Shown: positions 6,387-42,579 of the stretch, one piece after another
Layout of the letters: every line of letters begins with the position of its first letter
How positions within the stretch are numbered: position 1 is the stretch's first letter
Assembly (NCBI GenBank): GCA_029262735.1
Contig: JAJCYY010000013.1
Coordinates: 4,108 to 68,107 of the forward strand
From: Chloroflexota bacterium
GTDB taxonomy: Bacteria > Chloroflexota > Dehalococcoidia > Lucifugimonadales > Lucifugimonadaceae
DNA length: 64,000 nt
Direction of reading: 5' to 3'
Translations under genes and position numbers: made by a program
Notes under the pieces: model-generated
Told to the model about the DNA's origin: nothing
The model's input: the letters and a program-made list of their open reading frames with translations, nothing else
Databases searched by the model: none

Positions 6387-6469
6387 CGGCCAGTTCGCTG
6401 CCCTCCCGCCAGTATGTTGACTATCTTCCACGGCCGCATCTATCATTCCGGCGTTGTCGAATAGACATT

Positions 6470-6650
6470 GCCTCCCGGGTGCCGCCCGCCTCAACAGAAG
6501 GGCGAGCGGTGAAAAGGGAAAGCGGTAAGAATCCGCTGCGGTAGCGCCACTGTGATCGGCGAGTCTGTCTGCACGAGCCACTGCTCCGGCTAACGGGAGC
6601 GGGAAGGCGCAGACAGGCGTTGGAGCCGAGAGCCAGGAGACCTGCCCGAG
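6470..6650 (+). promoter_or_regulatory. Cobalamin (B12) riboswitch aptamer
   Basis: Conserved core read directly: GGTGAAAAGGGAAAGCGGTAAGAATCCGCTGCGG...GCGCCACTGTGA, ...GAGCCACTG...GGGAAGGC, and B12-box AGCCAGGAGACCTGCC at 6631-6646. It sits upstream of a btuCFD-like operon. Confidence 0.85.
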
Positions 6651-6761
6651 AGGCTGAGTGACTGCTTCCCGCCAAGGGGGTGGCTCTCGACTGTGGGTCT
6701 CCGGGACGGTCAGTGGGTTGCACTGGTTAGCCGGTTTTAATACAGATTCACGGCAAGAGAC

Positions 6762-10293: not shown

Positions 10294-10876
10294 TTCGAAT
10301 CTCGATACCCGCAACCATGAGGTGCACCTCGTCACAGACCGCAGCGACGCGCTGGTTCACGATTCCCTGCAGGTCAGCGAAGACGTTGCCCAGGCGTGTG
10401 GGCGGCGCAACACCGGTGCCGACATCATTGGCTATCAAGACGACGTGTCTTCTGGCTCCTTCAACGGCGGTTGCCAGATCGTCCAGGGCAGGCATAACTT
10501 CTCCCTCCGCCATTGCATAAAAGCCGGGCGAATCCGAATCGCCGCACCTGGCAAGTAAATTTGAGATCCAGACTGTCAGGCAGTCGACAATGACGACCGG
10601 TTCAGGCCCCGGATGGGCCAGGATCTCGGCCAGGACTCCCGGCAAGTTGACAGGCTCTTCAACTGTCTCCCATTCCGCCGGTCGTTCGGACTGATGGCGG
10701 GTTATCCGCTGCTTCATCCCGGTGTCTGCGTCGCGCGAATCCGCAGTGGCGACAAACAGCACGGGCTTGCCGGCAGCCAGTGACCTCGCGTGCTCGGCGG
10801 CATACCGGCTCTTGCCGGACCGCACTCCGCCCAGCACAAAAACGCGGTGTAGAGCTGACTTCGGCTCGTCTTTCAC
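10286..10876 (-). CDS. cobU: Adenosylcobinamide kinase / adenosylcobinamide-phosphate guanylyltransferase
   Basis: 196 aa. P-loop GGVRSGKSRYAE near the N-terminus. Overlapping stop/start with cobS. Confidence 0.85.
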   Translation of the reverse strand: MKDEPKSALHRVFVLGGVRSGKSRYAAEHARSLAAGKPVLFVATADSRDADTGMKQRITRHQSERPAEWETVEEPVNLPGVLAEILAHPGPEPVVIVDCLTVWISNLLARCGDSDSPGFYAMAEGEVMPALDDLATAVEGARRHVVLIANDVGTGVAPPTRLGNVFADLQGIVNQRVAAVCDEVHLMVAGIEIRIK

Positions 10877-11652
10877 CAGATAGCTCCAATATCGAATCCG
10901 GCCTCGATGAGTGCCAGCAAGGTCAGCAATGCGGACAACTCCGAAAGCTCTACAACAGCTCCGTAGATATCACCCGTCACCCCACCGATCGCCCGCCGAG
11001 CATACATCGCAATAAGTGCTCCGATCACAAATGCCACGGCAGCCGCAATTAGCGACGCCGGGTTGCCGAAGACAGCCGTCAGGGCAAGCGCGGTCACGAC
11101 TGCGGTCATCACGGCAAGGCGGGAACTATTCGAGTAGACGGCTCCTATGCCCTGGGCGCGCACATACGGGAACAGGGCGACAACTGCCGACACGGCTCCT
11201 CGGGACAGGACGGCTGCGACCACGAGAACTGACCAGTTTGACGCGGGGTCGAGCTCTGAGACAACTGCCCACCTGACGAGCAAGGCAAGGACTATGGCAG
11301 CGACGCCAAACGCGCCGGTCCGCGGGTCTGCCATAATCTCGAGCTTTCGCTCCCTGGTGCGACCGCCGAGCAGGCCGTCAAAGGAGTCTCCGAGCCCGTC
11401 GATATGTAGCGCTCCTGTGAGAACTACTGGCGTAGTAACCGCCAGCGCCGCGGCCACGGCTACCGGGAATGCCTCTGCTGCTGCGACGAACACACCTGCT
11501 GATGCCAGGCCGATGAGCACTCCGACCAGCGGAAAAAAGGCGAGTGAGTTGGCAAGTGCCCGTTCACGCCCTTCGTCTGATTGGCGCGCTCCGACCGGCA
11601 GAACCGTAAGAAGCCGAAATGCGGCCCAGAATGCGGCCAGTGTTGAGTTCAA
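10873..11652 (-). CDS. cobS: Adenosylcobinamide-GDP ribazoletransferase (cobalamin synthase)
   Basis: 259 aa and polytopic. AFRLLTVLPV start and HIDGLGDSFDGL motif typical of CobS. 4-nt overlaps with both neighbours. Confidence 0.85.
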   Translation of the reverse strand: MNSTLAAFWAAFRLLTVLPVGARQSDEGRERALANSLAFFPLVGVLIGLASAGVFVAAAEAFPVAVAAALAVTTPVVLTGALHIDGLGDSFDGLLGGRTRERKLEIMADPRTGAFGVAAIVLALLVRWAVVSELDPASNWSVLVVAAVLSRGAVSAVVALFPYVRAQGIGAVYSNSSRLAVMTAVVTALALTAVFGNPASLIAAAVAFVIGALIAMYARRAIGGVTGDIYGAVVELSELSALLTLLALIEAGFDIGAIW

Positions 11653-12713
11653 GAGCCTTCGCCATCGGTATCTTGTGCCGGCCCACTCACACTCGCCTCT
11701 TCGAACGTTGCCATCCCATTGTGCAGCGCGAGTGCTGCATCTACGACCGCAAGCGCAAGCGCTGCGCCGGTTCCCTCACCGAGCCTCATGCCGAGGTCAA
11801 GAAGCGGCTCCAGACCCAGGTGAGCCAGTGCAATGCTGTGTCCTGGCTCAACCGAACTATGTCCTGCGATCATGAACTGCACTACCTGCCGATCCAGGTT
11901 TGCAGCAATCAATGCGGCGGAAGTAGAGATGTAGCCGTCGAGCACGACCACCCCCCGTTCAGACGCCGTCCCGATCATCAATCCTGCCAGGAAGCCGATC
12001 TCGAACCCACCGATGCTGGCCAGTACGTCCATGCCGTCTTTCGCTGTGGGCTGGTTCACCTGGATGGCTCGCTCGATGGCCGCGATCTTCAGATTGAGCG
12101 AGGCTTCGTCCACTCCGGTCCCGCGCCCTGTGACCTTGCGTGGCTGCGCTCCGGTGACCATGGCGGTGATCGCGGCCGCGGCGGTCGTGTTGCCAATCCC
12201 CATTTCTCCGGGAACCACCACTGCCCTGCCGTCTCGAGTCAGCGATGCACCCAACGTGGCGCCTGTTTCGACGATGGCTTCTGCCTGTTCCTGGCTCATG
12301 GCTGGACCCTGAGTGAAGTTCGCCGTGCCCTTCGCTGGTCCGACGCGCCTGATCCTGTCATCGGCTGGCAACTCTGATGCGACGCCAGCGTCCACGATGA
12401 CAACTTCCATACCGGCCACACCGGCGAGGACGTTGATCGCGGCGCCACCGGCCAGGAAGTTCGCCATCATCTGCCCGGTAACCGATTGCGGATAGGCGCT
12501 CACACCTTCTTCGGCCACTCCGTGGTCGGCGGCGGCGATAACGGCATATCGCCTGTCGAATCCTGGCCGGGTTGAACCCTGGATACCTGACACCTGTACT
12601 GCGATATCTTCAAGCCGTCCGAGGCTTCCCTGTGGCTTCGTCAACTTGTCTTGCCGGGCTCTTGCGGCGTCAAACACAGCCCGGTCGATACCTGGGATCA
12701 CGGGCAGTTTCAT
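11649..12713 (-). CDS. cobT: Nicotinate-nucleotide--dimethylbenzimidazole phosphoribosyltransferase
   Basis: 354 aa. LTKPQGSLGRLEDIA, AADHGV, GEMGIGNTT and LDLGMRLGEGTGAALA motifs of CobT. Confidence 0.88.
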   Translation of the reverse strand: MKLPVIPGIDRAVFDAARARQDKLTKPQGSLGRLEDIAVQVSGIQGSTRPGFDRRYAVIAAADHGVAEEGVSAYPQSVTGQMMANFLAGGAAINVLAGVAGMEVVIVDAGVASELPADDRIRRVGPAKGTANFTQGPAMSQEQAEAIVETGATLGASLTRDGRAVVVPGEMGIGNTTAAAAITAMVTGAQPRKVTGRGTGVDEASLNLKIAAIERAIQVNQPTAKDGMDVLASIGGFEIGFLAGLMIGTASERGVVVLDGYISTSAALIAANLDRQVVQFMIAGHSSVEPGHSIALAHLGLEPLLDLGMRLGEGTGAALALAVVDAALALHNGMATFEEASVSGPAQDTDGEGS

Positions 12714-12898: not shown

Positions 12899-15800
12899 TC
12901 AACCCCAGTCTTTTGTTTGCAGGATCGGCGTCTCAGACCCGATAGGCACGATGTCTTCCACCACTATGTTCAGCGTTCCTTCGCGTTTGGAGACGGTTCC
13001 TGTAGCCATCAGAAGCTGCGAAACGGTATTCAAGCGTACTCGCTTGTAGACATCCGGCCATATCACAAGCGGGTTGTGCCCGAACTCATCCTCAAGGGTT
13101 ATGAAGGTGGCTTTGCCTGAAGGTCGCTGGCGGCGAATGACAAGTCCGGCGACAGTGATGCGACTGCCCTCCTCGTAGTTCTGGACCTTATCGCTCCTGG
13201 CAACGTTCGCCGGGAGCGACGGCCTGAGACGCGCCATGATGTGGCTTTCCGGGTGCACGCCCATTGCCGCGTACTCGCCCATCATCTGCTCCCACTTCGT
13301 CTCATCAGGCAACGGGACCATGTTCTGATCTTCAGAGAAAGGAAGCACGTGCTGGCTGTTTACCGGTCGATAACGCAGGCCCGCCTCCCAGATCAACGCA
13401 CGCCTGTCTGGCATATCCTCGGCCTGCGCCACGTCATGCGTATTCGCCGATTCCGGAGTGGGATGTTGCCGCTGCTTTTCGTGTGACTCAAAACCCTGAT
13501 CAACGGCAACGGAACTGGAACTTCCAAATCGATCGAACGCTCCTGCTGATGCCATGCCGTCCAGGACCTTCTGCTGTACGCCTGTCCGACGAATGAAGTC
13601 AGCCAGCGATTCGAATTTTCCGAAACGCTCCCTGGTCGCCAGAACGACCTCAGCATTCGGCCTGGTCATTCCATGAACATGTCGGAGGCCCATCCGCATG
13701 ACGCCGTTCTCTATCGAGGCCCACTCTTCACTCAGGTTCGCATCAGGCGGTAGCACTTCTATGGCGTGTCGTTTCGCGTCCTCTTTCAGCGTCTCGAGGT
13801 TGTAGAAGCCCATCGGCTGGTTGTTGAAGATGGCTACGAAGAACTCCAGCGGATAGTGATGTTTGAGCCATGACATCTGGTACGCGGTGATGCCGAAGGC
13901 GTATGCGTGCGCTTCAGGAAACTGGTAAAGCCCGTGGAACTTTCCGAAGATCTTCTCCGCAGCGTCTTGCGGCACTCCTCTGCTGACGGCCCGCTGAATG
14001 AAATCATCCTTCCACTTTGCAACCAGCCGAATGCTGTTGCGGTGTGAGAAGGCGCGCCGCATCCGGTCGCCTTCCAGTGGAGTCATCCCTGCAACATGGA
14101 CCGCAAGCTCTGCAAGCTGGTCCTGGAAGAGCGGAACACCGAGAGTTCGCTCGAGGGCCTCCTTTTCGAAGGGATGGTCATAGACCACTGGCTCCTGGCC
14201 AAGGTGACGGCGTATCAGCATCGAGACGCCGTCGTTTACACCGACGCCCGGCCTGACCGCGCCAACTTCCCATGCCATCTCTTCCAGGTTTTTCGGCTTC
14301 AGCCTGACAACCGTTTGCATCTGGGCAGCCGATTCGATCTGGAAGATGCCAATGGTGTCCGCCCTGTGGATATCCCCGTACACCTCCATGTCCTTGAAGT
14401 TGATCCGTGACAGATCGACCGGACGCTCCCTGTTCCGACGAATCAGTTGCAGTGCCTCAACCATCTGCGAAAGAGCGCCCAACGCAAGGAAGTCGATCTT
14501 CACAAGACCTGCGTCTTCTGATCCGTTCTTCTCCCACTGGATGATGTAACGGCCTTCCATGGCGCTGTTCTGCATCGGCACCACTTCATCCAGCGGCACC
14601 GCGCTCAGGACCATGCCACCCGGGTGCTGCGCCAGGTATTTTGGAAAATTCCTCAGCTGGAGTGAAAGCTCAATCAGGTACTGCCAGACCGGCGCGTCGA
14701 GACGGTGACGGTAGTCCGAGAGCTGCCCCATCTCGCGCGCTATGTCCCTGATCCCGGCGTGGCCGTCCATCTTCTTGATCAGCTTGCCCAGGTCTTCTTC
14801 GGGCAGGTTCAGCGCTTTGCCAAGGTCCCTGATGGCGCCACGCACCTTGTACGTGGAGATCATCCCAGTGAGAGCGGCGAACTTCGGCCCTTTACGATTG
14901 TGGACTCGCAGGATCAGCTCCTCGCGGATCTCCCTGGGGAAGTCGAGATCGATATCCAGCGCGGGCAAATCTTCAGGATTAGCATCTTCTGGCAGGAACC
15001 GGTCCAGCCTGAGGCTGAACTGAAGCGGATCGATGTGAGAGAGGCCGATCAGGTACCCGATGACGAGCGATACGGACGAGCCGCGCCCCCTGCCCGGAGG
15101 GTGATCTTCTATCCTGGTGTCCGACGAGACGATTCCCAGGTCTATCTGGACCTGGTGGGCGATCTTGATAATGTCGTGGTACTGGAGCAGGAAGCCAGCC
15201 AGGTTGTACTTCTCAATCAGGTGGAACTCTCTATCCAGGCGCTCATGCAGCCGTTGCCAGGTGTCCCTGTCGACGTTTTCGTATTTGTAGGTCGCCGCCC
15301 TTTCGCAGATTTCGCGTAGCCATGTGAGTGGCGTGTAGCCTTCAGGCGCGTCGTAGTCCGGGAACTTGTAGATCTTCTTGATGTCGCGCGCCAGGTCAAA
15401 GCTGCAACGCTCTGCAATCAGAATGGAATTGGAGATCGCCTCCGGGTGTTCCCTGTGCAGATAGGACATCTCTTCGGGAGATTTCAGATGGAACTGGTCA
15501 TTGGGACGCCGTTCGCGATGTGTCTCCTCAAGTGACTTGTTGTGCTGAATCGAGACCAGCGCATCGTTGAGCCGGTGACGGTCCCGGGAGTTGTAGTGGA
15601 CGTTGTTGGTTGCGACGGTTCCAATGCCGAGTTCATCGGCTAATCGCACCAGTTGGCGATTGCGTTCCGTATCGCCACGAACAAGATTTTGCTGCAATTC
15701 GAGAAAGAAGCTTTGCTTCCCAAACCACTGGATGTACTGCTCGGCCACCTTCTTTGCTTCGCACTGCTCGCCCAAAAGCAACAGCTCAGATATCTGCCCG

Positions 15801-16459
15801 CGGCGGCATCCTGAAAGGCAGATCACGCCTTCTGAGAAAGTGGCAAAGTACGCCGGGTCAAGTGCGGGCTGGTTCCGCTCTTCAGGGTCCATGTGAGCGT
15901 GAGTGATCAGCTTGCAGATGTTGCTGTACCCGGTTGCTGTCTCGGCCAGGAGTGTGAGGTGATGGCCGCCGAGACCGCTGCCAGAATCTCCAGAACTCTG
16001 GCTGCTGAGAGTGACCTCAACGCCGATGACGGCCTTTATGCCGATCTCTTTCGCCATCTGCGAGAACTCCATCGCCCCGCAAAGGTTGTCGTGGTCGGTG
16101 ATAGCCAATGCATGAATGCCCAGCTTCTTCGCACGCACCAGCAGGTCCCACGCCTCGGAAGCGCCTTCCTTGAAGGAGTAGTTGGTGTGGCAGTGGAGTT
16201 CCGCGTATGGCGTTTCCGGAGGCTCTGACCGTTCTGGAAAATCTTCGCCCTCAGTATCTGAGTAACGAACAAGGCTTCGGCCGCCGCTTATCCAGCCGTC
16301 GTAGACCTTGTTCTCCCAGTTCGGACGCTTATATTCGTTCCTGTTGTCCTCGATCTTGCGTTTGGCAGGCGACGTCCTGTCTCCGCCGGGAGACCCGTTC
16401 ACATGATTTGCGCGCGGCAGCCCGTGCATCTCCTCCATCAATCCGCCTGCCTGAACCAC
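12899..16459 (-). CDS. dnaE2: Error-prone DNA polymerase III alpha-like subunit
   Basis: 1186 aa. N-terminal PHP domain YAELHCHTNYSFKEGAS. Pol III alpha palm/fingers segments and a C-terminal OB region. Located directly downstream of the imuB-like gene. Confidence 0.9.
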   Translation of the reverse strand: MVQAGGLMEEMHGLPRANHVNGSPGGDRTSPAKRKIEDNRNEYKRPNWENKVYDGWISGGRSLVRYSDTEGEDFPERSEPPETPYAELHCHTNYSFKEGASEAWDLLVRAKKLGIHALAITDHDNLCGAMEFSQMAKEIGIKAVIGVEVTLSSQSSGDSGSGLGGHHLTLLAETATGYSNICKLITHAHMDPEERNQPALDPAYFATFSEGVICLSGCRRGQISELLLLGEQCEAKKVAEQYIQWFGKQSFFLELQQNLVRGDTERNRQLVRLADELGIGTVATNNVHYNSRDRHRLNDALVSIQHNKSLEETHRERRPNDQFHLKSPEEMSYLHREHPEAISNSILIAERCSFDLARDIKKIYKFPDYDAPEGYTPLTWLREICERAATYKYENVDRDTWQRLHERLDREFHLIEKYNLAGFLLQYHDIIKIAHQVQIDLGIVSSDTRIEDHPPGRGRGSSVSLVIGYLIGLSHIDPLQFSLRLDRFLPEDANPEDLPALDIDLDFPREIREELILRVHNRKGPKFAALTGMISTYKVRGAIRDLGKALNLPEEDLGKLIKKMDGHAGIRDIAREMGQLSDYRHRLDAPVWQYLIELSLQLRNFPKYLAQHPGGMVLSAVPLDEVVPMQNSAMEGRYIIQWEKNGSEDAGLVKIDFLALGALSQMVEALQLIRRNRERPVDLSRINFKDMEVYGDIHRADTIGIFQIESAAQMQTVVRLKPKNLEEMAWEVGAVRPGVGVNDGVSMLIRRHLGQEPVVYDHPFEKEALERTLGVPLFQDQLAELAVHVAGMTPLEGDRMRRAFSHRNSIRLVAKWKDDFIQRAVSRGVPQDAAEKIFGKFHGLYQFPEAHAYAFGITAYQMSWLKHHYPLEFFVAIFNNQPMGFYNLETLKEDAKRHAIEVLPPDANLSEEWASIENGVMRMGLRHVHGMTRPNAEVVLATRERFGKFESLADFIRRTGVQQKVLDGMASAGAFDRFGSSSSVAVDQGFESHEKQRQHPTPESANTHDVAQAEDMPDRRALIWEAGLRYRPVNSQHVLPFSEDQNMVPLPDETKWEQMMGEYAAMGVHPESHIMARLRPSLPANVARSDKVQNYEEGSRITVAGLVIRRQRPSGKATFITLEDEFGHNPLVIWPDVYKRVRLNTVSQLLMATGTVSKREGTLNIVVEDIVPIGSETPILQTKDWG

Positions 16460-16797
16460 TCGTCATTGACAAGATCGTGGAACACAGTCAGGCGCTGACT
16501 GCTCTGCAACACAAGGTCGAAGTAGACCCTTTCGATCTCCTGCTCTTCGCCTCGCCACCACTCATCGTTGATCTTCCAGAAATCCTCGATCGAAACCACA
16601 TCCATCCACTGTCCGTCGCTGCGTATCGCCTCCAGCTTCTGGGCGGGACGAAGCTGCCTTCGCTGCCGTCTCCGATGCGGCGCGCCAGTCTGTTTCATGG
16701 CTCCGATCTGCACGCGCTCCGGCATCCCTGTCGGGCCAGTCTCCACCTGCACCGGCTGCGGAGCGTTCAACTGCTGGATTGTGCGAACCGTTGTCAC
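16438..16797 (-). CDS. Hypothetical small Arg/Trp-rich protein between imuB and dnaE2
   Basis: 119-aa ORF on the same strand. It starts 21 nt after the imuB stop and overlaps the annotated dnaE2 start by 22 nt. No motif recognised. Confidence 0.55.
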   Translation of the reverse strand: MTTVRTIQQLNAPQPVQVETGPTGMPERVQIGAMKQTGAPHRRRQRRQLRPAQKLEAIRSDGQWMDVVSIEDFWKINDEWWRGEEQEIERVYFDLVLQSSQRLTVFHDLVNDEWFRQAD

Positions 16798-16817
16798 CAG
16801 GATCTCCTCAATAGCCC

Positions 16818-18080
16818 TTAGTGGCTCAGTTGAACCAGCGCGTGCCGGCGTTCAGGTATGCGAGACCACGGCTCAAGTTCCTTTACCTGGTAGATGGGAG
16901 GCGCCAGCCTTAGCCTGGCCGCCAGCTGCGCAACGGCCTGTTGCAGGTTGTCCTCGCGCTGGACCTCCTTCCACATCGACTCCTGCCGCCACGGTTCTGA
17001 GCTCAGGTCGGCAAGTGTCAATCGGAGGTCTTCGAGGGCTCCCGGAAACTCGACTCCATCGAGCTTTGTCTTGATCCCGAACATGGCATGATTCTTCGCC
17101 CCGACAGGCTCTTTGAACGCTACCTCCATGACCCACGGCGGCTTGCGAAAGACCTGCGCCTGCAGACGTGCCTTGCGGGCGTAACGGCGCGTCATTTGAG
17201 ATTTCGTGAATGCCTTGCCAAGCAAACTTTCGATAGCGGAAACGATGGTCGCAATGCTGACGGTAGGATCGGGAAAGGCCAGGTACTCGGAGACCGATTC
17301 GATCAGTTTACGCGGGACCAGGGGCTGCTCGTCTATGCCGTTCGCAAGCCTCCATATCAGCCGTCCGGCCAGGCCGAACTGTGCCTCTACCGGACCCTGC
17401 CGGAGCTTTGCCAGGTCAGCCAGTGTGCGGAGCCCGAACCTGTAAAGCCTCTCGATGATCTTGAATGGCACAGGCAGAAGCTCTATCGAGAATCCGCCGA
17501 CGAACCGCGCCGGGTCACCTTTCACCATCTGTGCGGTATGCGGGCTGCTCAGAAGAGACGCCAGGTACGCCTGCCATTTGTTCTCACCAATGCCTATGCG
17601 CAGGTCAAAACTACCAGCGGTTTCAGCCAGTAGCCGGATCACTTCACCGGCCGTTCCGTAAAGCCGGTCTAGCCCGCTAAAGTCGATATACGCCACTCCC
17701 GGCCCGGCGTCCTCGACAGCCGGAATGAGCTGCTCGAACTCAATGAGCAGGCTCTCAAATCCAGAGACATAAAGAGGCAGGTCTCCCTGGATCAATAGAG
17801 CATTGCTGTGACGCGACAGGGCGATCCTCAGCGGCATTCCTACTGTCACGTCTGTGATCCCGGCTGAGAAGTCGAGAACGACCGGCTCAGAGAGGCTCAG
17901 GTCTTTGCGAGTGTTTATGCCGTTGCCGAAACTCGTCTGCGGAAGGTCCAGCGCCGAGCACGTCACAAGCACCGGCCGGTCCCCATCAAGAGACGGCTGT
18001 CTGCCAACTTCAACCTGCCAGCAGAAGTTAGGCACACGAACGCATGCCACCTGGCGTTTTTTTTGCTCTGGCCGTTGCAC
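16818..18080 (-). CDS. imuB: ImuB-like Y-family DNA polymerase homologue
   Basis: 420 aa. Y-family style N-terminus (VACVRVPNFCWQVE). Position is upstream of dnaE2 and downstream of an SOS box. Confidence 0.75.
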   Translation of the reverse strand: MQRPEQKKRQVACVRVPNFCWQVEVGRQPSLDGDRPVLVTCSALDLPQTSFGNGINTRKDLSLSEPVVLDFSAGITDVTVGMPLRIALSRHSNALLIQGDLPLYVSGFESLLIEFEQLIPAVEDAGPGVAYIDFSGLDRLYGTAGEVIRLLAETAGSFDLRIGIGENKWQAYLASLLSSPHTAQMVKGDPARFVGGFSIELLPVPFKIIERLYRFGLRTLADLAKLRQGPVEAQFGLAGRLIWRLANGIDEQPLVPRKLIESVSEYLAFPDPTVSIATIVSAIESLLGKAFTKSQMTRRYARKARLQAQVFRKPPWVMEVAFKEPVGAKNHAMFGIKTKLDGVEFPGALEDLRLTLADLSSEPWRQESMWKEVQREDNLQQAVAQLAARLRLAPPIYQVKELEPWSRIPERRHALVQLSH

Positions 18081-18178
18081 AGCTAAGGGCGCGTTCCGAA
18101 GGAGTGATCAGGTTGCAGCGATAGAGCCTTAGTAGCCAACGAGATGCTCCGAATACGGGTAATATTCATGGGTTACTG

Positions 18179-18206
18179 ATAATAGAACATGTGTTCTGTT
18201 TGTCAA
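18179..18206 (-). promoter_or_regulatory. Sigma-70-like promoter with embedded LexA (SOS) box
   Basis: Minus strand reads TTGACA-16 nt-TATTAT (-35 at 18201-18206, -10 at 18179-18184). The spacer holds the palindrome AGAACACATGTTCT (18184-18197), matching the GAAC-N4-GTTC Cheo-box core. Confidence 0.75.
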
Positions 18207-18354: not shown

Positions 18355-19368
18355 CTACTCCTGGTGGAGCGTTACCGATCGCATTGGAGGGGCGAACTGA
18401 TGCGGCTCCAGGTGTATGGCCTCTTTCTGATAGACCTGCACTCGATAAGAACCTGTATCTGCGATGAAAAGGTGGCCGTCCGAGTCGATCGCGATCGACC
18501 TTGGTTGGCGAAGGTATCTCTGGGGCTCTAAGACCGCCATGTCACGAATCCGGTTGGGACTGGCATTCGTCATCATGTATTCACGGCCGACCTTCGACAG
18601 AGTAGCCGCGCCCAGGAATTTTTCGACATACCGGGCTTCAGAATTGAACAGTTGGACACGATTGTTGCCCCGGTCACAGACATAGATGTCGCCGTCGGTA
18701 TCGACAGCTACGTCGGTTGGTCGATTGAACTCACCGTCGTCGGCGCCAGAACTCCCAAACTTCATGATGAACTCGCCGTCTCCGGTGAACTTCTGAACGC
18801 GGTCGTTCCTCCAGTCCGCAACGTAGACATCGCCCAGCTCGTCAACCGTGATGCCCCACGGCGAATCGAACTGTCCATCGCCTGTCCCCTTCTCGCCCCA
18901 GCTGAGAATGAACTGGCCATCGCTGGTGAGTTTTTGGACTCGATGATTTTGTGAGTCGACGACATAGATGTTCTCTTCGGAATCGAGCGCAAGCCCGGCC
19001 GGCCGATTGAGCTGGCCGTTGGCGGAACCTTGTTCCCCAAAAGAGCCCAGAAACTCTCCGTCGCTATTGAACGACGAGATTCTGTGAAGCGCTTCGTCCG
19101 AGACGAATAGATTCTCAGTTGAATCAGCGACGATGGAAACCGGCCACTGGAATTTTCCCTCTTCATCACCAAATCCACCGAAGTCGCCGCGGTCCTCATC
19201 ATCAAAGGTGTACTTCCTTACCAGTGCCGTACCCTCCTGGCGGCACAGAATGTACATCCTGCCTTCGGCACCGAGGGCGATGTCCACCGGGAAGTTGGTA
19301 AGACGGCGCATTCCCAGAGTTTTCAGGTACGGGAATCCCGCTCGTAGCAATCCATATGGTCTGGCCAT
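18355..19368 (-). CDS. NHL-repeat beta-propeller protein
   Basis: 337 aa with about six repeats of the pattern G.F..P.G.A.D..G.IYV.D..N.R.Q.F. Confidence 0.8.
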   Translation of the reverse strand: MARPYGLLRAGFPYLKTLGMRRLTNFPVDIALGAEGRMYILCRQEGTALVRKYTFDDEDRGDFGGFGDEEGKFQWPVSIVADSTENLFVSDEALHRISSFNSDGEFLGSFGEQGSANGQLNRPAGLALDSEENIYVVDSQNHRVQKLTSDGQFILSWGEKGTGDGQFDSPWGITVDELGDVYVADWRNDRVQKFTGDGEFIMKFGSSGADDGEFNRPTDVAVDTDGDIYVCDRGNNRVQLFNSEARYVEKFLGAATLSKVGREYMMTNASPNRIRDMAVLEPQRYLRQPRSIAIDSDGHLFIADTGSYRVQVYQKEAIHLEPHQFAPPMRSVTLHQE

Positions 19369-19442: not shown

Positions 19443-20612
19443 TCACGCGCCACCGAACGGCTGCAACTGCTCGTACTTGCCATTGACAATATCAACCGAA
19501 TCCACACCCATCCATTGTTCGAGAAGCGTCGCATAGACACCACGGAAATCGATCGTGTGGGCCAGGTCTTCACCGTTGGCGAATGTAGTCGGATCTAGCG
19601 ATGGGTATTCGGCGTAGAGACCGCCTTCGACCTGGTCGCCGATGATGAACGCTCCTCCGCCAGAGCCGTGATCGGTGCCGCTGCCGTTGTCCTGGACCCT
19701 GCGGCCGAACTCGGTGAAAACGTACACGACAACCTCTTCAGAAGCGTTGTGTTCCCGCAGGTCGTCCATGAAGTCTCGCAGCGCGCAACTCAGTTCGTCG
19801 AGCAGTTTTTCGTGAGCAGGCATCTCAACGGCATGATGGTCATAGCCTGCGTGCTGCACATAGAAGATGCGCGTGCCAAGCCCGGCGATATGGGTTCGCG
19901 CTACATCGCGCAAACTCTTCGCAATGGCGTTGTCAGCGTACTCGACGGTTGACTCGTACTTGCCAGCCACGGTCTGAAGCTGACCTATCCCTGCCAGGAC
20001 ATCATCACCGGTTTGCTGCAGGTAGTTCATGGTCGCCCCGCTGCCGATGGCAGGCGTGTAAAAGCGCCGGAATATGTTGAGTTCTTCAGCGCGCTGCTCT
20101 TGAACCTCGACCGACGTCATAAGCCCGTAGCTGTCGAGATCGCCAACTGACGTCACTCTCACTCCCGGCGCAGCCATTGCGCGTGGGAGACCACGCCCGA
20201 AGCTGACTCCGGTCAGGACATTTTTTCCTTCCGGATCCAACTGCTTGATCGCCCGTGCCAGCCAGCCCTCGGTTGAAATCTTCAGCGGCTCTGCCGTGTG
20301 CATGATGTCCATCGCGCGAAAGTGCGATCGATTCGAATCTTCATAACCAATGCCCTGAACTACGGCCACGTCGCCTGTATCGAACATCTCTTTTAGTGGA
20401 CCGGCAGACGGATGGAACCCCAGTTCATCATTGATCGTCAAAACACGGTCTTCGGTGATCCGGACCGTCTTTCGAGAGTCGTAGTAAAGCCCGGACGTGT
20501 ACGGCACCAGCGTGTTCATGAAGTCGTTGCCGCCCGTCAACTGAACGACCACAAGGACCGGGGCTTTGCCCGTCATACCGTTCCCATTGATGTTCATGTG
20601 AGACATCTCCAT
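19443..20612 (-). CDS. DUF1501 domain protein (sulfatase-like fold)
   Basis: 389 aa. VVVQLTGGNDFMNTLVPY near the N-terminus and FGRRVQDNGSGTDHG near the C-terminus. Paired with a DUF1800 gene, as is usual. Confidence 0.75.
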   Translation of the reverse strand: MEMSHMNINGNGMTGKAPVLVVVQLTGGNDFMNTLVPYTSGLYYDSRKTVRITEDRVLTINDELGFHPSAGPLKEMFDTGDVAVVQGIGYEDSNRSHFRAMDIMHTAEPLKISTEGWLARAIKQLDPEGKNVLTGVSFGRGLPRAMAAPGVRVTSVGDLDSYGLMTSVEVQEQRAEELNIFRRFYTPAIGSGATMNYLQQTGDDVLAGIGQLQTVAGKYESTVEYADNAIAKSLRDVARTHIAGLGTRIFYVQHAGYDHHAVEMPAHEKLLDELSCALRDFMDDLREHNASEEVVVYVFTEFGRRVQDNGSGTDHGSGGGAFIIGDQVEGGLYAEYPSLDPTTFANGEDLAHTIDFRGVYATLLEQWMGVDSVDIVNGKYEQLQPFGGA

Positions 20613-42493: not shown

Positions 42494-42579
42494 TGGTGGG
42501 GAAGGGGGGATTCGAACCCCCACGTCTGTTAAGACACATGCTCCTAAGGCATGCGCGTCTGCCATTTCGCCACTTCCCC
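42494..42579 (-). tRNA. tRNA-Leu, anticodon UAG, type II (long variable arm), CCA encoded
   Basis: The reverse complement folds by eye. Acceptor GGGGAAG/CTTCCCC. Anticodon arm CATGC-CTTAGGA-GCATG. Variable arm TGTCTTAACAGACGT. T-arm GGGGG-TTCGAAT-CCCCC. Ends in ACCA. Confidence 0.9.

What the first reader, a model, noticed from the sequence alone, without database searches (positions are those of the whole stretch)
16438..18206. SOS box embedded in the promoter spacer of an imuA-less imuB - small ORF - dnaE2 cassette
On the minus strand, TTGACA (18201-18206) and TATTAT (18179-18184) are 16 nt apart. The spacer is almost entirely the palindrome AGAACACATGTTCT (GAAC-N4-GTTC Cheo-type LexA core), so bound LexA would occlude RNA polymerase. 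The canonical cassette is imuA-imuB-dnaE2, but no imuA/sulA-like gene precedes imuB here. Instead, a 119-aa Arg/Trp-rich ORF (…HRRRQRRQLRPAQK…WKINDEWWRGEEQE…) lies between imuB and dnaE2 and overlaps the dnaE2 start. It may be an alternative accessory subunit of the mutasome.
Basis: partly seen in the sequence, partly recalled or inferred. Interest (0 to 1): 0.5.

Follow-up and report, generated by a model that had tools for sequence, protein, structure and literature searches.

The report
SOS-controlled split-ImuB / DnaE2 mutasome operon
This is a DNA-damage-inducible operon for an error-prone DNA polymerase in a Dehalococcoidia bacterium. Its "mystery" small gene is the C-terminal domain of ImuB made as a separate protein, an arrangement already described in the literature, so the finding is real but ordinary.

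Summary
On the minus strand, TTGACA (18206-18201) and TATTAT (18184-18179) are 16 nt apart, and the spacer holds the palindrome AGAACACATGTTCT. Behind them lie three tightly packed genes. The same promoter-operator module (TTGAC-N5-GAAC-N4-GTTC-TATTAT) appears upstream of the orthologous operon in 38 of 39 Dehalococcoidia loci that have upstream sequence, one of them with a single mismatch. It is therefore a conserved operator of the type reported for LexA in Firmicutes, Actinobacteria and, in variant form, Chloroflexi.

The 119-aa ORF is a real gene: dN/dS is about 0.15 and its position is conserved. It is not a new kind of subunit. It is a stand-alone ImuB-C domain:
- profile-profile match to the C-termini of canonical ImuBs: 97 %, E 1e-10
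- 42 % identity to the published ImuB-C of Dehalogenimonas

It carries a disordered Arg-rich insertion specific to this lineage.

The "imuB" is a catalytically dead Y-family polymerase. It keeps the beta-clamp motif (QESMW) and the RecA-NT-like helix, and it ends where ImuB-C begins in fused ImuBs. No ImuA, RecA or LexA gene lies in the window or in the flanks of 41 related loci.

The cassette matches the published "DnaE2X-iPolY-ImuB-C-RecA" (split ImuB) system, which has already been modelled for Dehalococcoidia. Interest is low.

The parts
18201..18206 (-). -35 hexamer TTGACA
   Evidence: Read directly. Part of the only 11/12 sigma-70 match in 12.5-19.5 kb. TTGAC/TTGAT/TTGCT sits at the same position in 38 related loci.
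18184..18197 (.). LexA-type operator: palindrome AGAACACATGTTCT (GAAC-N4-GTTC core at 18185-18196). It lies in the promoter spacer and overlaps the first base of the -10.
   Evidence: The core is invariant in 37 of 40 Dehalococcoidia loci and has one mismatch in L014. The motif type is reported as the LexA site of Firmicutes and Actinobacteria, with variants in Chloroflexi (PMC4951493, citing Fernandez de Henestrosa 2002 on Dehalococcoides).
18179..18184 (-). -10 hexamer TATTAT
   Evidence: It is conserved as TATTAT, TAATAT, TATGAT or TATCAT immediately after GTTC in relatives.
18081..18178 (-). 5' leader of about 95 nt between the -10 and the GTG start of the Y-family gene
   Evidence: No Rfam match. 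Folding is no better than shuffled sequence, z = +0.9. Not alignable to the closest relative beyond about 10 nt after the -10. Relatives carry a DUF72 gene here instead.
16818..18080 (-). Inactive Y-family polymerase (iPolY): the ImuB N-terminal module, 420 aa. It has a dead active site, the beta-clamp motif QESMW (366-370), a RecA-NT-like helix (about 374-394) and the conserved tail PPIYQV.ELEPWSRIPERR.
   Evidence: - PF00817 IMS at 2e-8.
- The DinB catalytic residues D8, D103 and E104 are replaced by R, G and V. The same positions are non-acidic in 114 homologues.
- 37 % identity over the full length, E 4e-76, to Dehalogenimonas iPolY ADJ25743.
- The protein ends where the linker to ImuB-C starts in fused ImuBs.
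- The start codon is taken from alignment with L010, which has an ATG at the equivalent position. One gene caller chose a start 15 codons downstream.
16438..16797 (-). Stand-alone ImuB-C domain protein, 119 aa. The beta-rich core is residues about 13-30 and 62-117. Residues about 31-61 are a lineage-specific Arg-rich disordered insertion. The gene has its own Shine-Dalgarno (AGGAG, 7 nt before the GTG).
   Evidence: - 15 close homologues, all in the same gene position.
- dN/dS 0.14-0.19; third codon positions vary in 102 of 117 columns.
- hhalign of the family against canonical ImuB C-termini: 97 %, E 1.2e-10.
- 42 % identity, E 2e-18, to published ImuB-C ADJ25744.
- Family members reach the Pfam DUF6504 threshold.
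- AF2 model: all-beta core with pLDDT 85-92; insertion below 50.
12899..16438 (-). DnaE2-type error-prone C-family polymerase, 1179 aa from the ATG that overlaps the ImuB-C stop (TGATG)
   Evidence: - Best NCBIfam hit is 'error-prone DNA polymerase' NF004225, 804 bits, below its 939-bit cut-off.
- Pfam domains PHP, DNA_pol3_alpha, finger, HHH_6 and OB.
- Catalytic motifs DIDLDF (495) and KIDFL (647) are present.
- The gene caller also used the ATG start.

Best explanation
The locus is a LexA-repressed operon of a Dehalococcoidia bacterium that encodes a three-protein translesion 'mutasome' of the split-ImuB type (DnaE2X-iPolY-ImuB-C).

Inferred steps of regulation:
- In undamaged cells a LexA dimer sits on AGAAC-N4-GTTCT. 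This site fills the spacer between -35 and -10 and overlaps the -10, so RNA polymerase cannot bind.
- After DNA damage, RecA-stimulated self-cleavage of LexA frees the promoter.
- One mRNA is then made and translated in a coupled fashion. There is a 20-nt gap with a Shine-Dalgarno before the small gene, and a TGATG overlap into dnaE2.

Shown from sequence and homology:
- The first protein is a catalytically dead Y-family polymerase with a beta-clamp motif and a RecA-NT-like helix.
- The second is the ImuB-C beta-domain made as a separate polypeptide.
- The third is a DnaE2 with intact polymerase motifs.

Inferred from published models and mycobacterial experiments on fused ImuB:
- The dead polymerase tethers the complex to the sliding clamp.
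- ImuB-C bridges to the PHP domain of DnaE2.
- Cellular RecA docks on the RecA-NT helix in place of ImuA.
- DnaE2 carries out the error-prone synthesis.
For: - Promoter and operator read directly and conserved in 38 of 39 related loci that have upstream sequence.
- Gene order iPolY, small ORF, dnaE2 in nearly all of 40 Dehalococcoidia loci.
- Purifying selection on the small ORF.
- Small-ORF family against canonical ImuB C-termini: hhalign 97 %, E 1.2e-10, covering ImuB residues about 425-500.
- An HMM of the family hits the extreme C-terminus of all 6 canonical ImuBs tested.
- Link to Pfam DUF6504.
- Direct BLASTP to the published Dehalogenimonas ImuB-C (E 2e-18) and iPolY (E 4e-76).
- Dead active site, with the QESMW motif conserved in 108-113 of 114 homologues.
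- The order clamp motif, RecA-NT, linker matches M. smegmatis ImuB: QLPLW 352-356, RecA-NT 360-387, ImuB-C 422-525 (PMC11791113).
- DnaE2 identity and catalytic motifs.
- No ImuA, RecA or LexA homologue in the window or in 41 related loci.
- The published description of exactly this system, with RecA proposed as the ImuA substitute and ImuB-C contacting the DnaE2 PHP domain (PMC6511836, PMC12926913).
Against: - LexA binding, damage induction and co-transcription are not shown for this organism.
- No lexA gene is in the window and the rest of the genome could not be searched.
- RecA as the fourth subunit rests only on published modelling.
- The RecA-NT helix was identified by alignment position and amphipathic pattern, not by a dedicated profile.
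- The DnaE2 scores below NCBIfam's curated cut-off for 'error-prone DNA polymerase'. Its assignment to the DnaE2X group was not tested phylogenetically.
- The iPolY start codon has no obvious Shine-Dalgarno.
Confidence: 0.85

Rival explanations
1. The 119-aa protein is a new kind of accessory subunit, unrelated to known mutasome parts, that replaces ImuA.
For: - No Pfam or NCBIfam hit for the protein itself.
- No PDB sequence hit.
- No imuA gene nearby.
Against: - Profile-profile match to ImuB C-termini at 97 %, E 1.2e-10.
- 42 % identity to a protein published as ImuB-C.
- The lack of PDB neighbours is itself reported for ImuB-C (PMC12926913).
- ImuA is a RecA-like protein of about 230-310 aa in the cassettes fetched here, whereas this is a 60-90-residue beta-domain.
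Confidence: 0.04
2. The split is an artefact or a pseudogene. On this reading a fused imuB was broken by a frameshift, a nonsense mutation or an assembly error, and the small ORF is a remnant.
For: The two ORFs are in different frames and only 20 nt apart. Together they reproduce the domain order of a fused ImuB.
Against: - The same split is present in all 40 Dehalococcoidia loci, with varying gaps or overlaps and separate start codons.
- None of the listed top 120 of 330 iPolY homologues carries a precomputed DUF6504 (PF20114) hit, and all but one of the 113 that are at least 370 aa long are under 500 aa. Fusion to a C-terminal ImuB-C domain was not tested for directly.
- The small ORF is under purifying selection and has its own Shine-Dalgarno.
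- The published Dehalogenimonas, Sphaerobacter and Kyrpidia systems are split in the same way.
Confidence: 0.02
3. The palindrome is the operator of a regulator other than LexA, or has no regulatory role. The operon would then not be part of an SOS response.
For: - No lexA gene in the window or in related loci.
- GAAC-N4-GTTC alone occurs 4 times in the window, not significantly above chance.
- No other convincing box in the 64 kb.
Against: - The position inside the promoter is invariant across deep divergence.
- The motif equals the LexA site reported for Firmicutes and Actinobacteria, with variants in Chloroflexi (PMC4951493).
- imuB/dnaE2 cassettes are classic LexA targets, and the split-ImuB operons often include lexA (PMC6511836).
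Confidence: 0.08

Closest known systems
DnaE2X-iPolY-ImuB-C-RecA putative mutasome ('split ImuB'). Examples: Dehalogenimonas lykanthroporepellens, Sphaerobacter thermophilus, Kyrpidia tusciae and Deinococcus deserti (NAR 2026, PMC12926913). Called the Kyrpidia-type operon in Timinskas & Venclovas 2019 (PMC6511836).
   Same: - Same three genes in the same order.
- Dead Y-family polymerase with a clamp motif, a RecA-NT helix and the EPWSRIPERR tail.
- Separate ImuB-C protein with the W-R/K-I-D-D-E-W-W-R motif.
- DnaE2 immediately downstream, and no imuA.
- Pairwise E-values of 4e-76 (iPolY) and 2e-18 (ImuB-C) to the Dehalogenimonas proteins.
   Different: - The ImuB-C here is 119 aa instead of about 80-95. 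The difference is an Arg-rich insertion of about 30 residues found only in its closest relatives.
- lexA is not in the operon.
- The DnaE2 has an N-terminal extension of about 75 aa.
- Membership of the DnaE2X clade was not tested by phylogeny.
Canonical ImuA-ImuB-DnaE2 (ImuABC) SOS mutagenesis cassette of Proteobacteria and Actinobacteria (e.g. M. tuberculosis, C. crescentus, P. aeruginosa)
   Same: - LexA-controlled operon.
- Dead Y-family protein with a clamp motif and a RecA-NT helix.
- ImuB-C domain and a DnaE2 catalytic subunit.
- Probably the same division of labour.
   Different: - No ImuA or ImuA' gene.
- ImuB-C is a separate polypeptide rather than fused.
- Identity of the Y-family core to ImuB1 and ImuB2 is only about 22-26 %.
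Stand-alone ImuB-C proteins (Aravind et al. 2013, PMC3765255; GSU0042-like; partly covered by Pfam DUF6504)
   Same: Small beta-rich protein with the conserved Trp and basic residues, encoded next to translesion polymerases and often under LexA control.
   Different: Most stand-alone ImuB-C genes accompany an active DinB-type polymerase. Here the partners are a dead polymerase plus DnaE2.
E. coli Pol V (UmuD'2C-RecA)
   Same: SOS-induced multi-subunit translesion polymerase in which a Y-family protein binds the clamp, RecA and a small beta-rich accessory subunit.
   Different: In Pol V the Y-family subunit is the catalyst and the small subunit is an SH3-like LexA-family fragment. Here the catalyst is a C-family polymerase, and ImuB-C is reported as a different fold (PMC12926913).

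Membership tests
DnaE2X-iPolY-ImuB-C(-RecA) split-ImuB system | Y-family homologue lacking the catalytic acidic residues (iPolY) | tested here: met
   DinB D8, D103 and E104 align to R, G and V in the window protein. The same positions are non-acidic in 114 homologues.
DnaE2X-iPolY-ImuB-C(-RecA) split-ImuB system | [quoted passage not shown] | tested here: met
   hhalign 97 %, E 1.2e-10 to canonical ImuB C-termini. BLASTP E 2e-18 to ADJ25744 and 5e-16 to ACZ39476. The protein itself does not reach Pfam DUF6504, although relatives do.
DnaE2X-iPolY-ImuB-C(-RecA) split-ImuB system | DnaE2-type C-family polymerase in the same operon | tested here: met
   The best NCBIfam model is 'error-prone DNA polymerase' at 804 bits, below its 939-bit cut-off. 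Domain set and catalytic motifs are present. The gene is translationally coupled to ImuB-C.
DnaE2X-iPolY-ImuB-C(-RecA) split-ImuB system | The DnaE2 belongs to the DnaE2X phylogenetic group | not tested
   The supplement holds only truncated reference DnaE2X sequences, and no tree was built.
DnaE2X-iPolY-ImuB-C(-RecA) split-ImuB system | RecA-NT-like motif after the clamp motif in the iPolY | tested here: inconclusive
   An amphipathic stretch, NLQQAVAQLAARLRL, lies 4-8 residues after QESMW. It aligns with the RecA-NT region of actinobacterial ImuB. No dedicated profile or RecA docking was run.
DnaE2X-iPolY-ImuB-C(-RecA) split-ImuB system | No imuA in the genome, with RecA as partner | not testable with these tools
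   No ImuA or RecA homologue in the 64-kb window or in 41 related loci of about 12 kb each. The whole genome could not be searched.
Canonical ImuA-ImuB-DnaE2 cassette | imuA (RecA-like) gene in the cassette | tested here: not met
   tblastn and phmmer with Agrobacterium ImuA and Kitasatospora ImuA' found nothing in the window or the loci. The upstream gene is an NHL-repeat protein.
Canonical ImuA-ImuB-DnaE2 cassette | ImuB with a fused C-terminal ImuB-C domain | tested here: not met
   The Y-family ORF stops at 420 aa, before the ImuB-C region of the fused ImuBs in alignment A3. The domain is a separate ORF.
LexA (SOS) regulon, GAAC-N4-GTTC type | Palindromic GAAC-N4-GTTC operator overlapping the promoter of a DNA-damage gene | tested here: met
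LexA (SOS) regulon, GAAC-N4-GTTC type | A LexA repressor in the genome that binds the site; induction by DNA damage | not testable with these tools
   No lexA in the window or the loci. Binding by Dehalococcoides LexA is known only from the cited literature (PMC4951493, reference B26).

The most novel reading that the evidence does not exclude
In this Dehalococcoidia subclade, ImuB-C has acquired an Arg-rich disordered loop of about 30 residues (roughly residues 31-61). In many relatives the same LexA-controlled transcript also carries a DUF72 TIM-barrel protein related to UV-damage endonucleases. The most novel reading not excluded has two parts:
- The basic loop gives the split mutasome its own DNA- or RecA-filament-binding function, partly replacing ImuA.
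- DUF72 is a dedicated lesion-processing nuclease of this mutasome.
Probability: 0.1. Interest if true: 0.4.

Novelty: new member of a known kind. Interest (0 to 1): 0.15.

Why it matters
The locus adds one more well-resolved example of the split-ImuB mutasome, from an uncultured Dehalococcoidia lineage. [quoted passage not shown]

The comparative set assembled here gives a very clean phylogenetic footprint: 40 loci, with an invariant -35 / LexA box / -10 module. It could be used to define the Dehalococcoidia SOS operator and regulon. It also supports a DNA-repair role for DUF72.

None of this changes current understanding.

Tried and rejected
- Direct Pfam and NCBIfam scans of the small ORF gave nothing useful. 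The only hit was spurious, E 0.016.
- PDB sequence searches with the family profile and with a canonical ImuB found no ImuB or ImuB-C structure.
- hhalign of the shallow 15-sequence profile against single ImuBs was weak, 29 % and 0.2 %. It became convincing only with the 100-sequence profile and an ImuB-C alignment. The match to actinobacterial ImuB2 alone stays weak, E 6e-3.
- I searched for ImuA, RecA and LexA in the window and loci and found none.
- I looked for a remnant of the DUF72 gene in the window's leader and found none.
- The leader has no Rfam match and no unusual fold.
- I looked for further LexA boxes in the window and found none beyond chance.
- Programmed frameshifting between the two ORFs is rejected, because the gap length and frame relation vary among relatives.
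- The 2002 Dehalococcoides LexA paper is not held in the library.
Full report
**Observation**

- TTGACA lies at 18206-18201 and TATTAT at 18184-18179.
- The 16-nt spacer is AACAGAACACATGTTC.
- The 14-nt perfect palindrome AGAACACATGTTCT occupies 18197-18184, and its last T is the first base of the -10.

The consensus scan finds this as the only sigma-70-type site in 12.5-19.5 kb, scoring 11 of 12. The bare core GAAC-N4-GTTC is not statistically remarkable: 4 in the window against 1.6 expected, and 7 of 100 shuffles reach 4. The extended 16-mer TAGAAC-N4-GTTCTA is unique at one mismatch, and every other match has three mismatches, which is the chance level.

Three ORFs follow on the minus strand:
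- a 420-aa Y-family protein at 16818-18080
- the 119-aa ORF at 16438-16797
- a 1179-aa DnaE-type polymerase at 12899-16438

The small ORF is preceded by AGGAG, seven bases before its GTG. Its TGA overlaps the dnaE2 ATG by one base (TGATG).

**Is the small ORF a gene?**

Yes.
- It has 15 close homologues of 43-71 % identity, all small stand-alone proteins. They share an invariant block D-WKINDEWWRG...EIERVYF...T-FHDL...W-RQ.
- In every contig inspected it sits between a PF00817 Y-family gene and a dnaE2, while the outer neighbours differ.
- A scan of one genome per species returned 40 loci, all Dehalococcoidia or Chloroflexota. They include the cultured Candidatus Lucifugimonas marina.
- tblastn shows the order iPolY, small ORF, dnaE2 in nearly all of them.
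- Codon-level comparison with five relatives gives nucleotide identity of 58-70 %, saturated synonymous sites, and dN/dS of 0.14-0.19 where it can be measured. Third positions vary in 102 of 117 columns, against 52-66 for first and second positions.

**What is the small ORF?**

It hits no Pfam or NCBIfam model itself. A profile of its family finds 655 cluster representatives, and a profile of 100 domain sequences finds 7045 proteins. These are mostly proteins of about 95 aa with the consensus V..I.D.WRIDDEWWR..PISR.Y..V.LE.G...T.F.DL....W..Q. A few of them reach the Pfam DUF6504 threshold.

The motif matches the ImuB C-terminal domain (ImuB-C) described by Aravind et al. (PMC3765255). I tested this as follows.
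- I fetched canonical imuA-imuB-dnaE2 cassettes from plasmids of Agrobacterium, Roseomonas, Polymorphobacter, Ralstonia, Shinella and Kitasatospora.
- The family profile aligns to residues 425-499 of the 503-aa Agrobacterium ImuB (hhalign 89.5 %, E 2e-6).
- A local HMM hits the extreme C-terminus of all six ImuBs.
- Against an alignment of the six ImuB C-termini the probability is 97 % with E 1.2e-10. The match also covers the N-terminal "R..LN.P.P..V" segment of the small protein.
- The Agrobacterium ImuB C-terminus gives a sub-threshold DUF6504 hit over the same residues.
- The supplement of the 2026 survey of bacterial polymerases (PMC12926913) gives the sequences of the "DnaE2X-iPolY-ImuBC-RecA system" of Dehalogenimonas lykanthroporepellens and Sphaerobacter thermophilus. 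The window protein is 42 % identical (E 2e-18) to the Dehalogenimonas ImuB-C and 41 % identical (E 5e-16) to the Sphaerobacter one.

**The "imuB" gene**

The protein aligns with DinB and with fused ImuBs. The DinB catalytic residues D8, D103 and E104 correspond to R, G and V. In 114 homologues these columns are never acidic, and position 103 is G in 113.

After the polymerase core come three elements:
- QESMW at 366-370, with Q in 113 of 114 and W in 108 of 114 homologues
- an amphipathic helix-like stretch, NLQQAVAQLAARLRL
- the very conserved tail PPIYQV.ELEPWSRIPERR.ALVQLS

This order mirrors M. smegmatis ImuB: clamp motif QLPLW at 352-356, RecA-NT at 360-387, a linker, then ImuB-C at 422-525 (PMC11791113). 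The Dehalococcoidia protein stops inside the linker. The fused ImuBs continue from there into ImuB-C.

The protein is 37 % identical over its full length (E 4e-76) to the published Dehalogenimonas iPolY, including the EPWSRIPERR tail. None of the listed top 120 of 330 homologues carries a precomputed DUF6504 hit, and nearly all are under 500 aa. The split therefore appears to be lineage-wide and not an accident. The varying gaps and frames between the two ORFs in relatives argue against programmed frameshifting.

**DnaE2**

The best NCBIfam model is "error-prone DNA polymerase" at 804 bits. That is above the DnaE models but below its own cut-off of 939, which fits a divergent DnaE2 group. All Pol III alpha domains are present, as are the catalytic motifs DIDLDF and KIDFL.

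**Operator**

I extracted the region around each GAAC-N4-GTTC upstream of the operon in the related loci. This shows the same module, TTGAC(A/T)-N4-GAAC-N4-GTTC-TA(T/A)TAT, in 37 of 40 loci, and the sequence on both sides is unalignable.
- L014 has the module with one mismatch.
- L040 lacks the upstream region.
- L015 has only about 330 nt upstream, and no box was found there.

This is a textbook phylogenetic footprint of a repressor site placed to exclude RNA polymerase. GAAC-N4-GTTC is the reported LexA site of Firmicutes and Actinobacteria, with variants in Chloroflexi (PMC4951493). That paper cites Fernandez de Henestrosa et al. 2002 on Dehalococcoides, which is not held in the library. 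LexA control of imuB/dnaE2 cassettes is well known, and the split-ImuB operons "often" include lexA (PMC6511836). No lexA, recA or imuA homologue is present in the window or in 41 related loci, and the whole genome could not be searched.

**Comparison with the literature**

- Aravind et al. 2013 defined ImuB-C. They noted stand-alone versions encoded with DnaE2 and an inactive DinB.
- Timinskas & Venclovas 2019 described the ImuA-less operon "inactive Y-family polymerase, stand-alone ImuB-C, DnaE2". [quoted passage not shown]
- The 2026 survey names the type DnaE2X-iPolY-ImuB-C-RecA and calls it a "split ImuB" and a possible ancestor of ImuA-ImuB-DnaE2. It reports AlphaFold models in which ImuB-C contacts the DnaE2 PHP domain, including one for a Dehalococcoidia species.

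The window locus meets the tested defining features of this type. It fails two defining features of the canonical ImuABC cassette: it has no imuA and no fused ImuB-C.

**Verdict**

The interpretation needs one correction: the small ORF is the detached C-terminal domain of ImuB, not a new subunit. The system is a further member of a described kind. The only lineage-specific features are the disordered Arg-rich insertion in ImuB-C and, in relatives, a DUF72 gene on the same LexA-controlled transcript.

Noticed in passing
L010:3913-4722, L011:3891-4721, L012, L013, L025, L030, L034, L037-L039, L041, L043, L046, L049 (absent from the window): A DUF72 (PF01904) gene sits between the LexA-box promoter and the iPolY gene in 14 of 40 Dehalococcoidia loci, so it would be co-induced with the mutasome. 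DUF72 is an uncharacterised TIM barrel related to UV-damage endonuclease and was recently noted near polB2 damage-response operons (PMC11791011). The window shows no remnant of it.
   Followed up: partly
L025, L041, L049 (dnaE2 on the opposite strand, upstream of the box); L020:6372-8965, L021, L014, and L024, L027-L029, L034, L036-L038: The operon is rearranged in some relatives. In three loci dnaE2 is divergently oriented, with the operator in the shared intergenic region. In others, 0.6-2.6 kb separates ImuB-C from dnaE2; opposite-strand ORFs were confirmed in Candidatus Lucifugimonas marina (L020), and stop-to-stop reading frames of 80 aa or more on both strands were seen in the other gaps. 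No LexA box was found in front of the separated dnaE2.
   Followed up: partly
L042:3002-3060: There is a second copy of the promoter-operator module (TTGACA-N5-GAACAGGTGTTC-TAATAT) about 1.5 kb upstream of the operon's own. It lies directly after a 442-aa transposase-like ORF (1627-2955) and is followed by repetitive GC-rich DNA with no clear gene.
   Followed up: partly
L022, L024, L027-L029, L031, L042 (about 15-45 nt after the -10); L030, L034, L037, L038, L043, L046: Conserved inverted repeats lie in the 5' leaders of two subgroups of relatives, for example cccgcagcgggaac...gttcccgg and agcggtggcg...cgccccgct. The window's own leader has no such element and folds no better than shuffled sequence.
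   Followed up: no
window 6460-6663 (+); window 10873-12713 (-): A cobalamin riboswitch scores 110 bits. Cobalamin lower-ligand genes (DBI_PRT/CobT, CobS and CobU families) lie immediately downstream of dnaE2 on the minus strand.
   Followed up: no
window 42497-42579 (-): A tRNA gene, Rfam RF00005, 60.5 bits.
   Followed up: no
window 18355-19368 (-) and 19443-20612 (-): The genes upstream of the promoter are an NHL-repeat beta-propeller protein (ScyF-like hit, 180 bits, below cut-off) and a DUF1501 protein. Neither is related to DNA repair.
   Followed up: no
P0023 (304 aa), P0034 (215 aa): Two ImuB-C family members in the metagenome library are called as fusions with a DUF559 (Vsr-like endonuclease fold) domain at the N-terminal side. 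These may be real fusions or gene-call artefacts.
   Followed up: no
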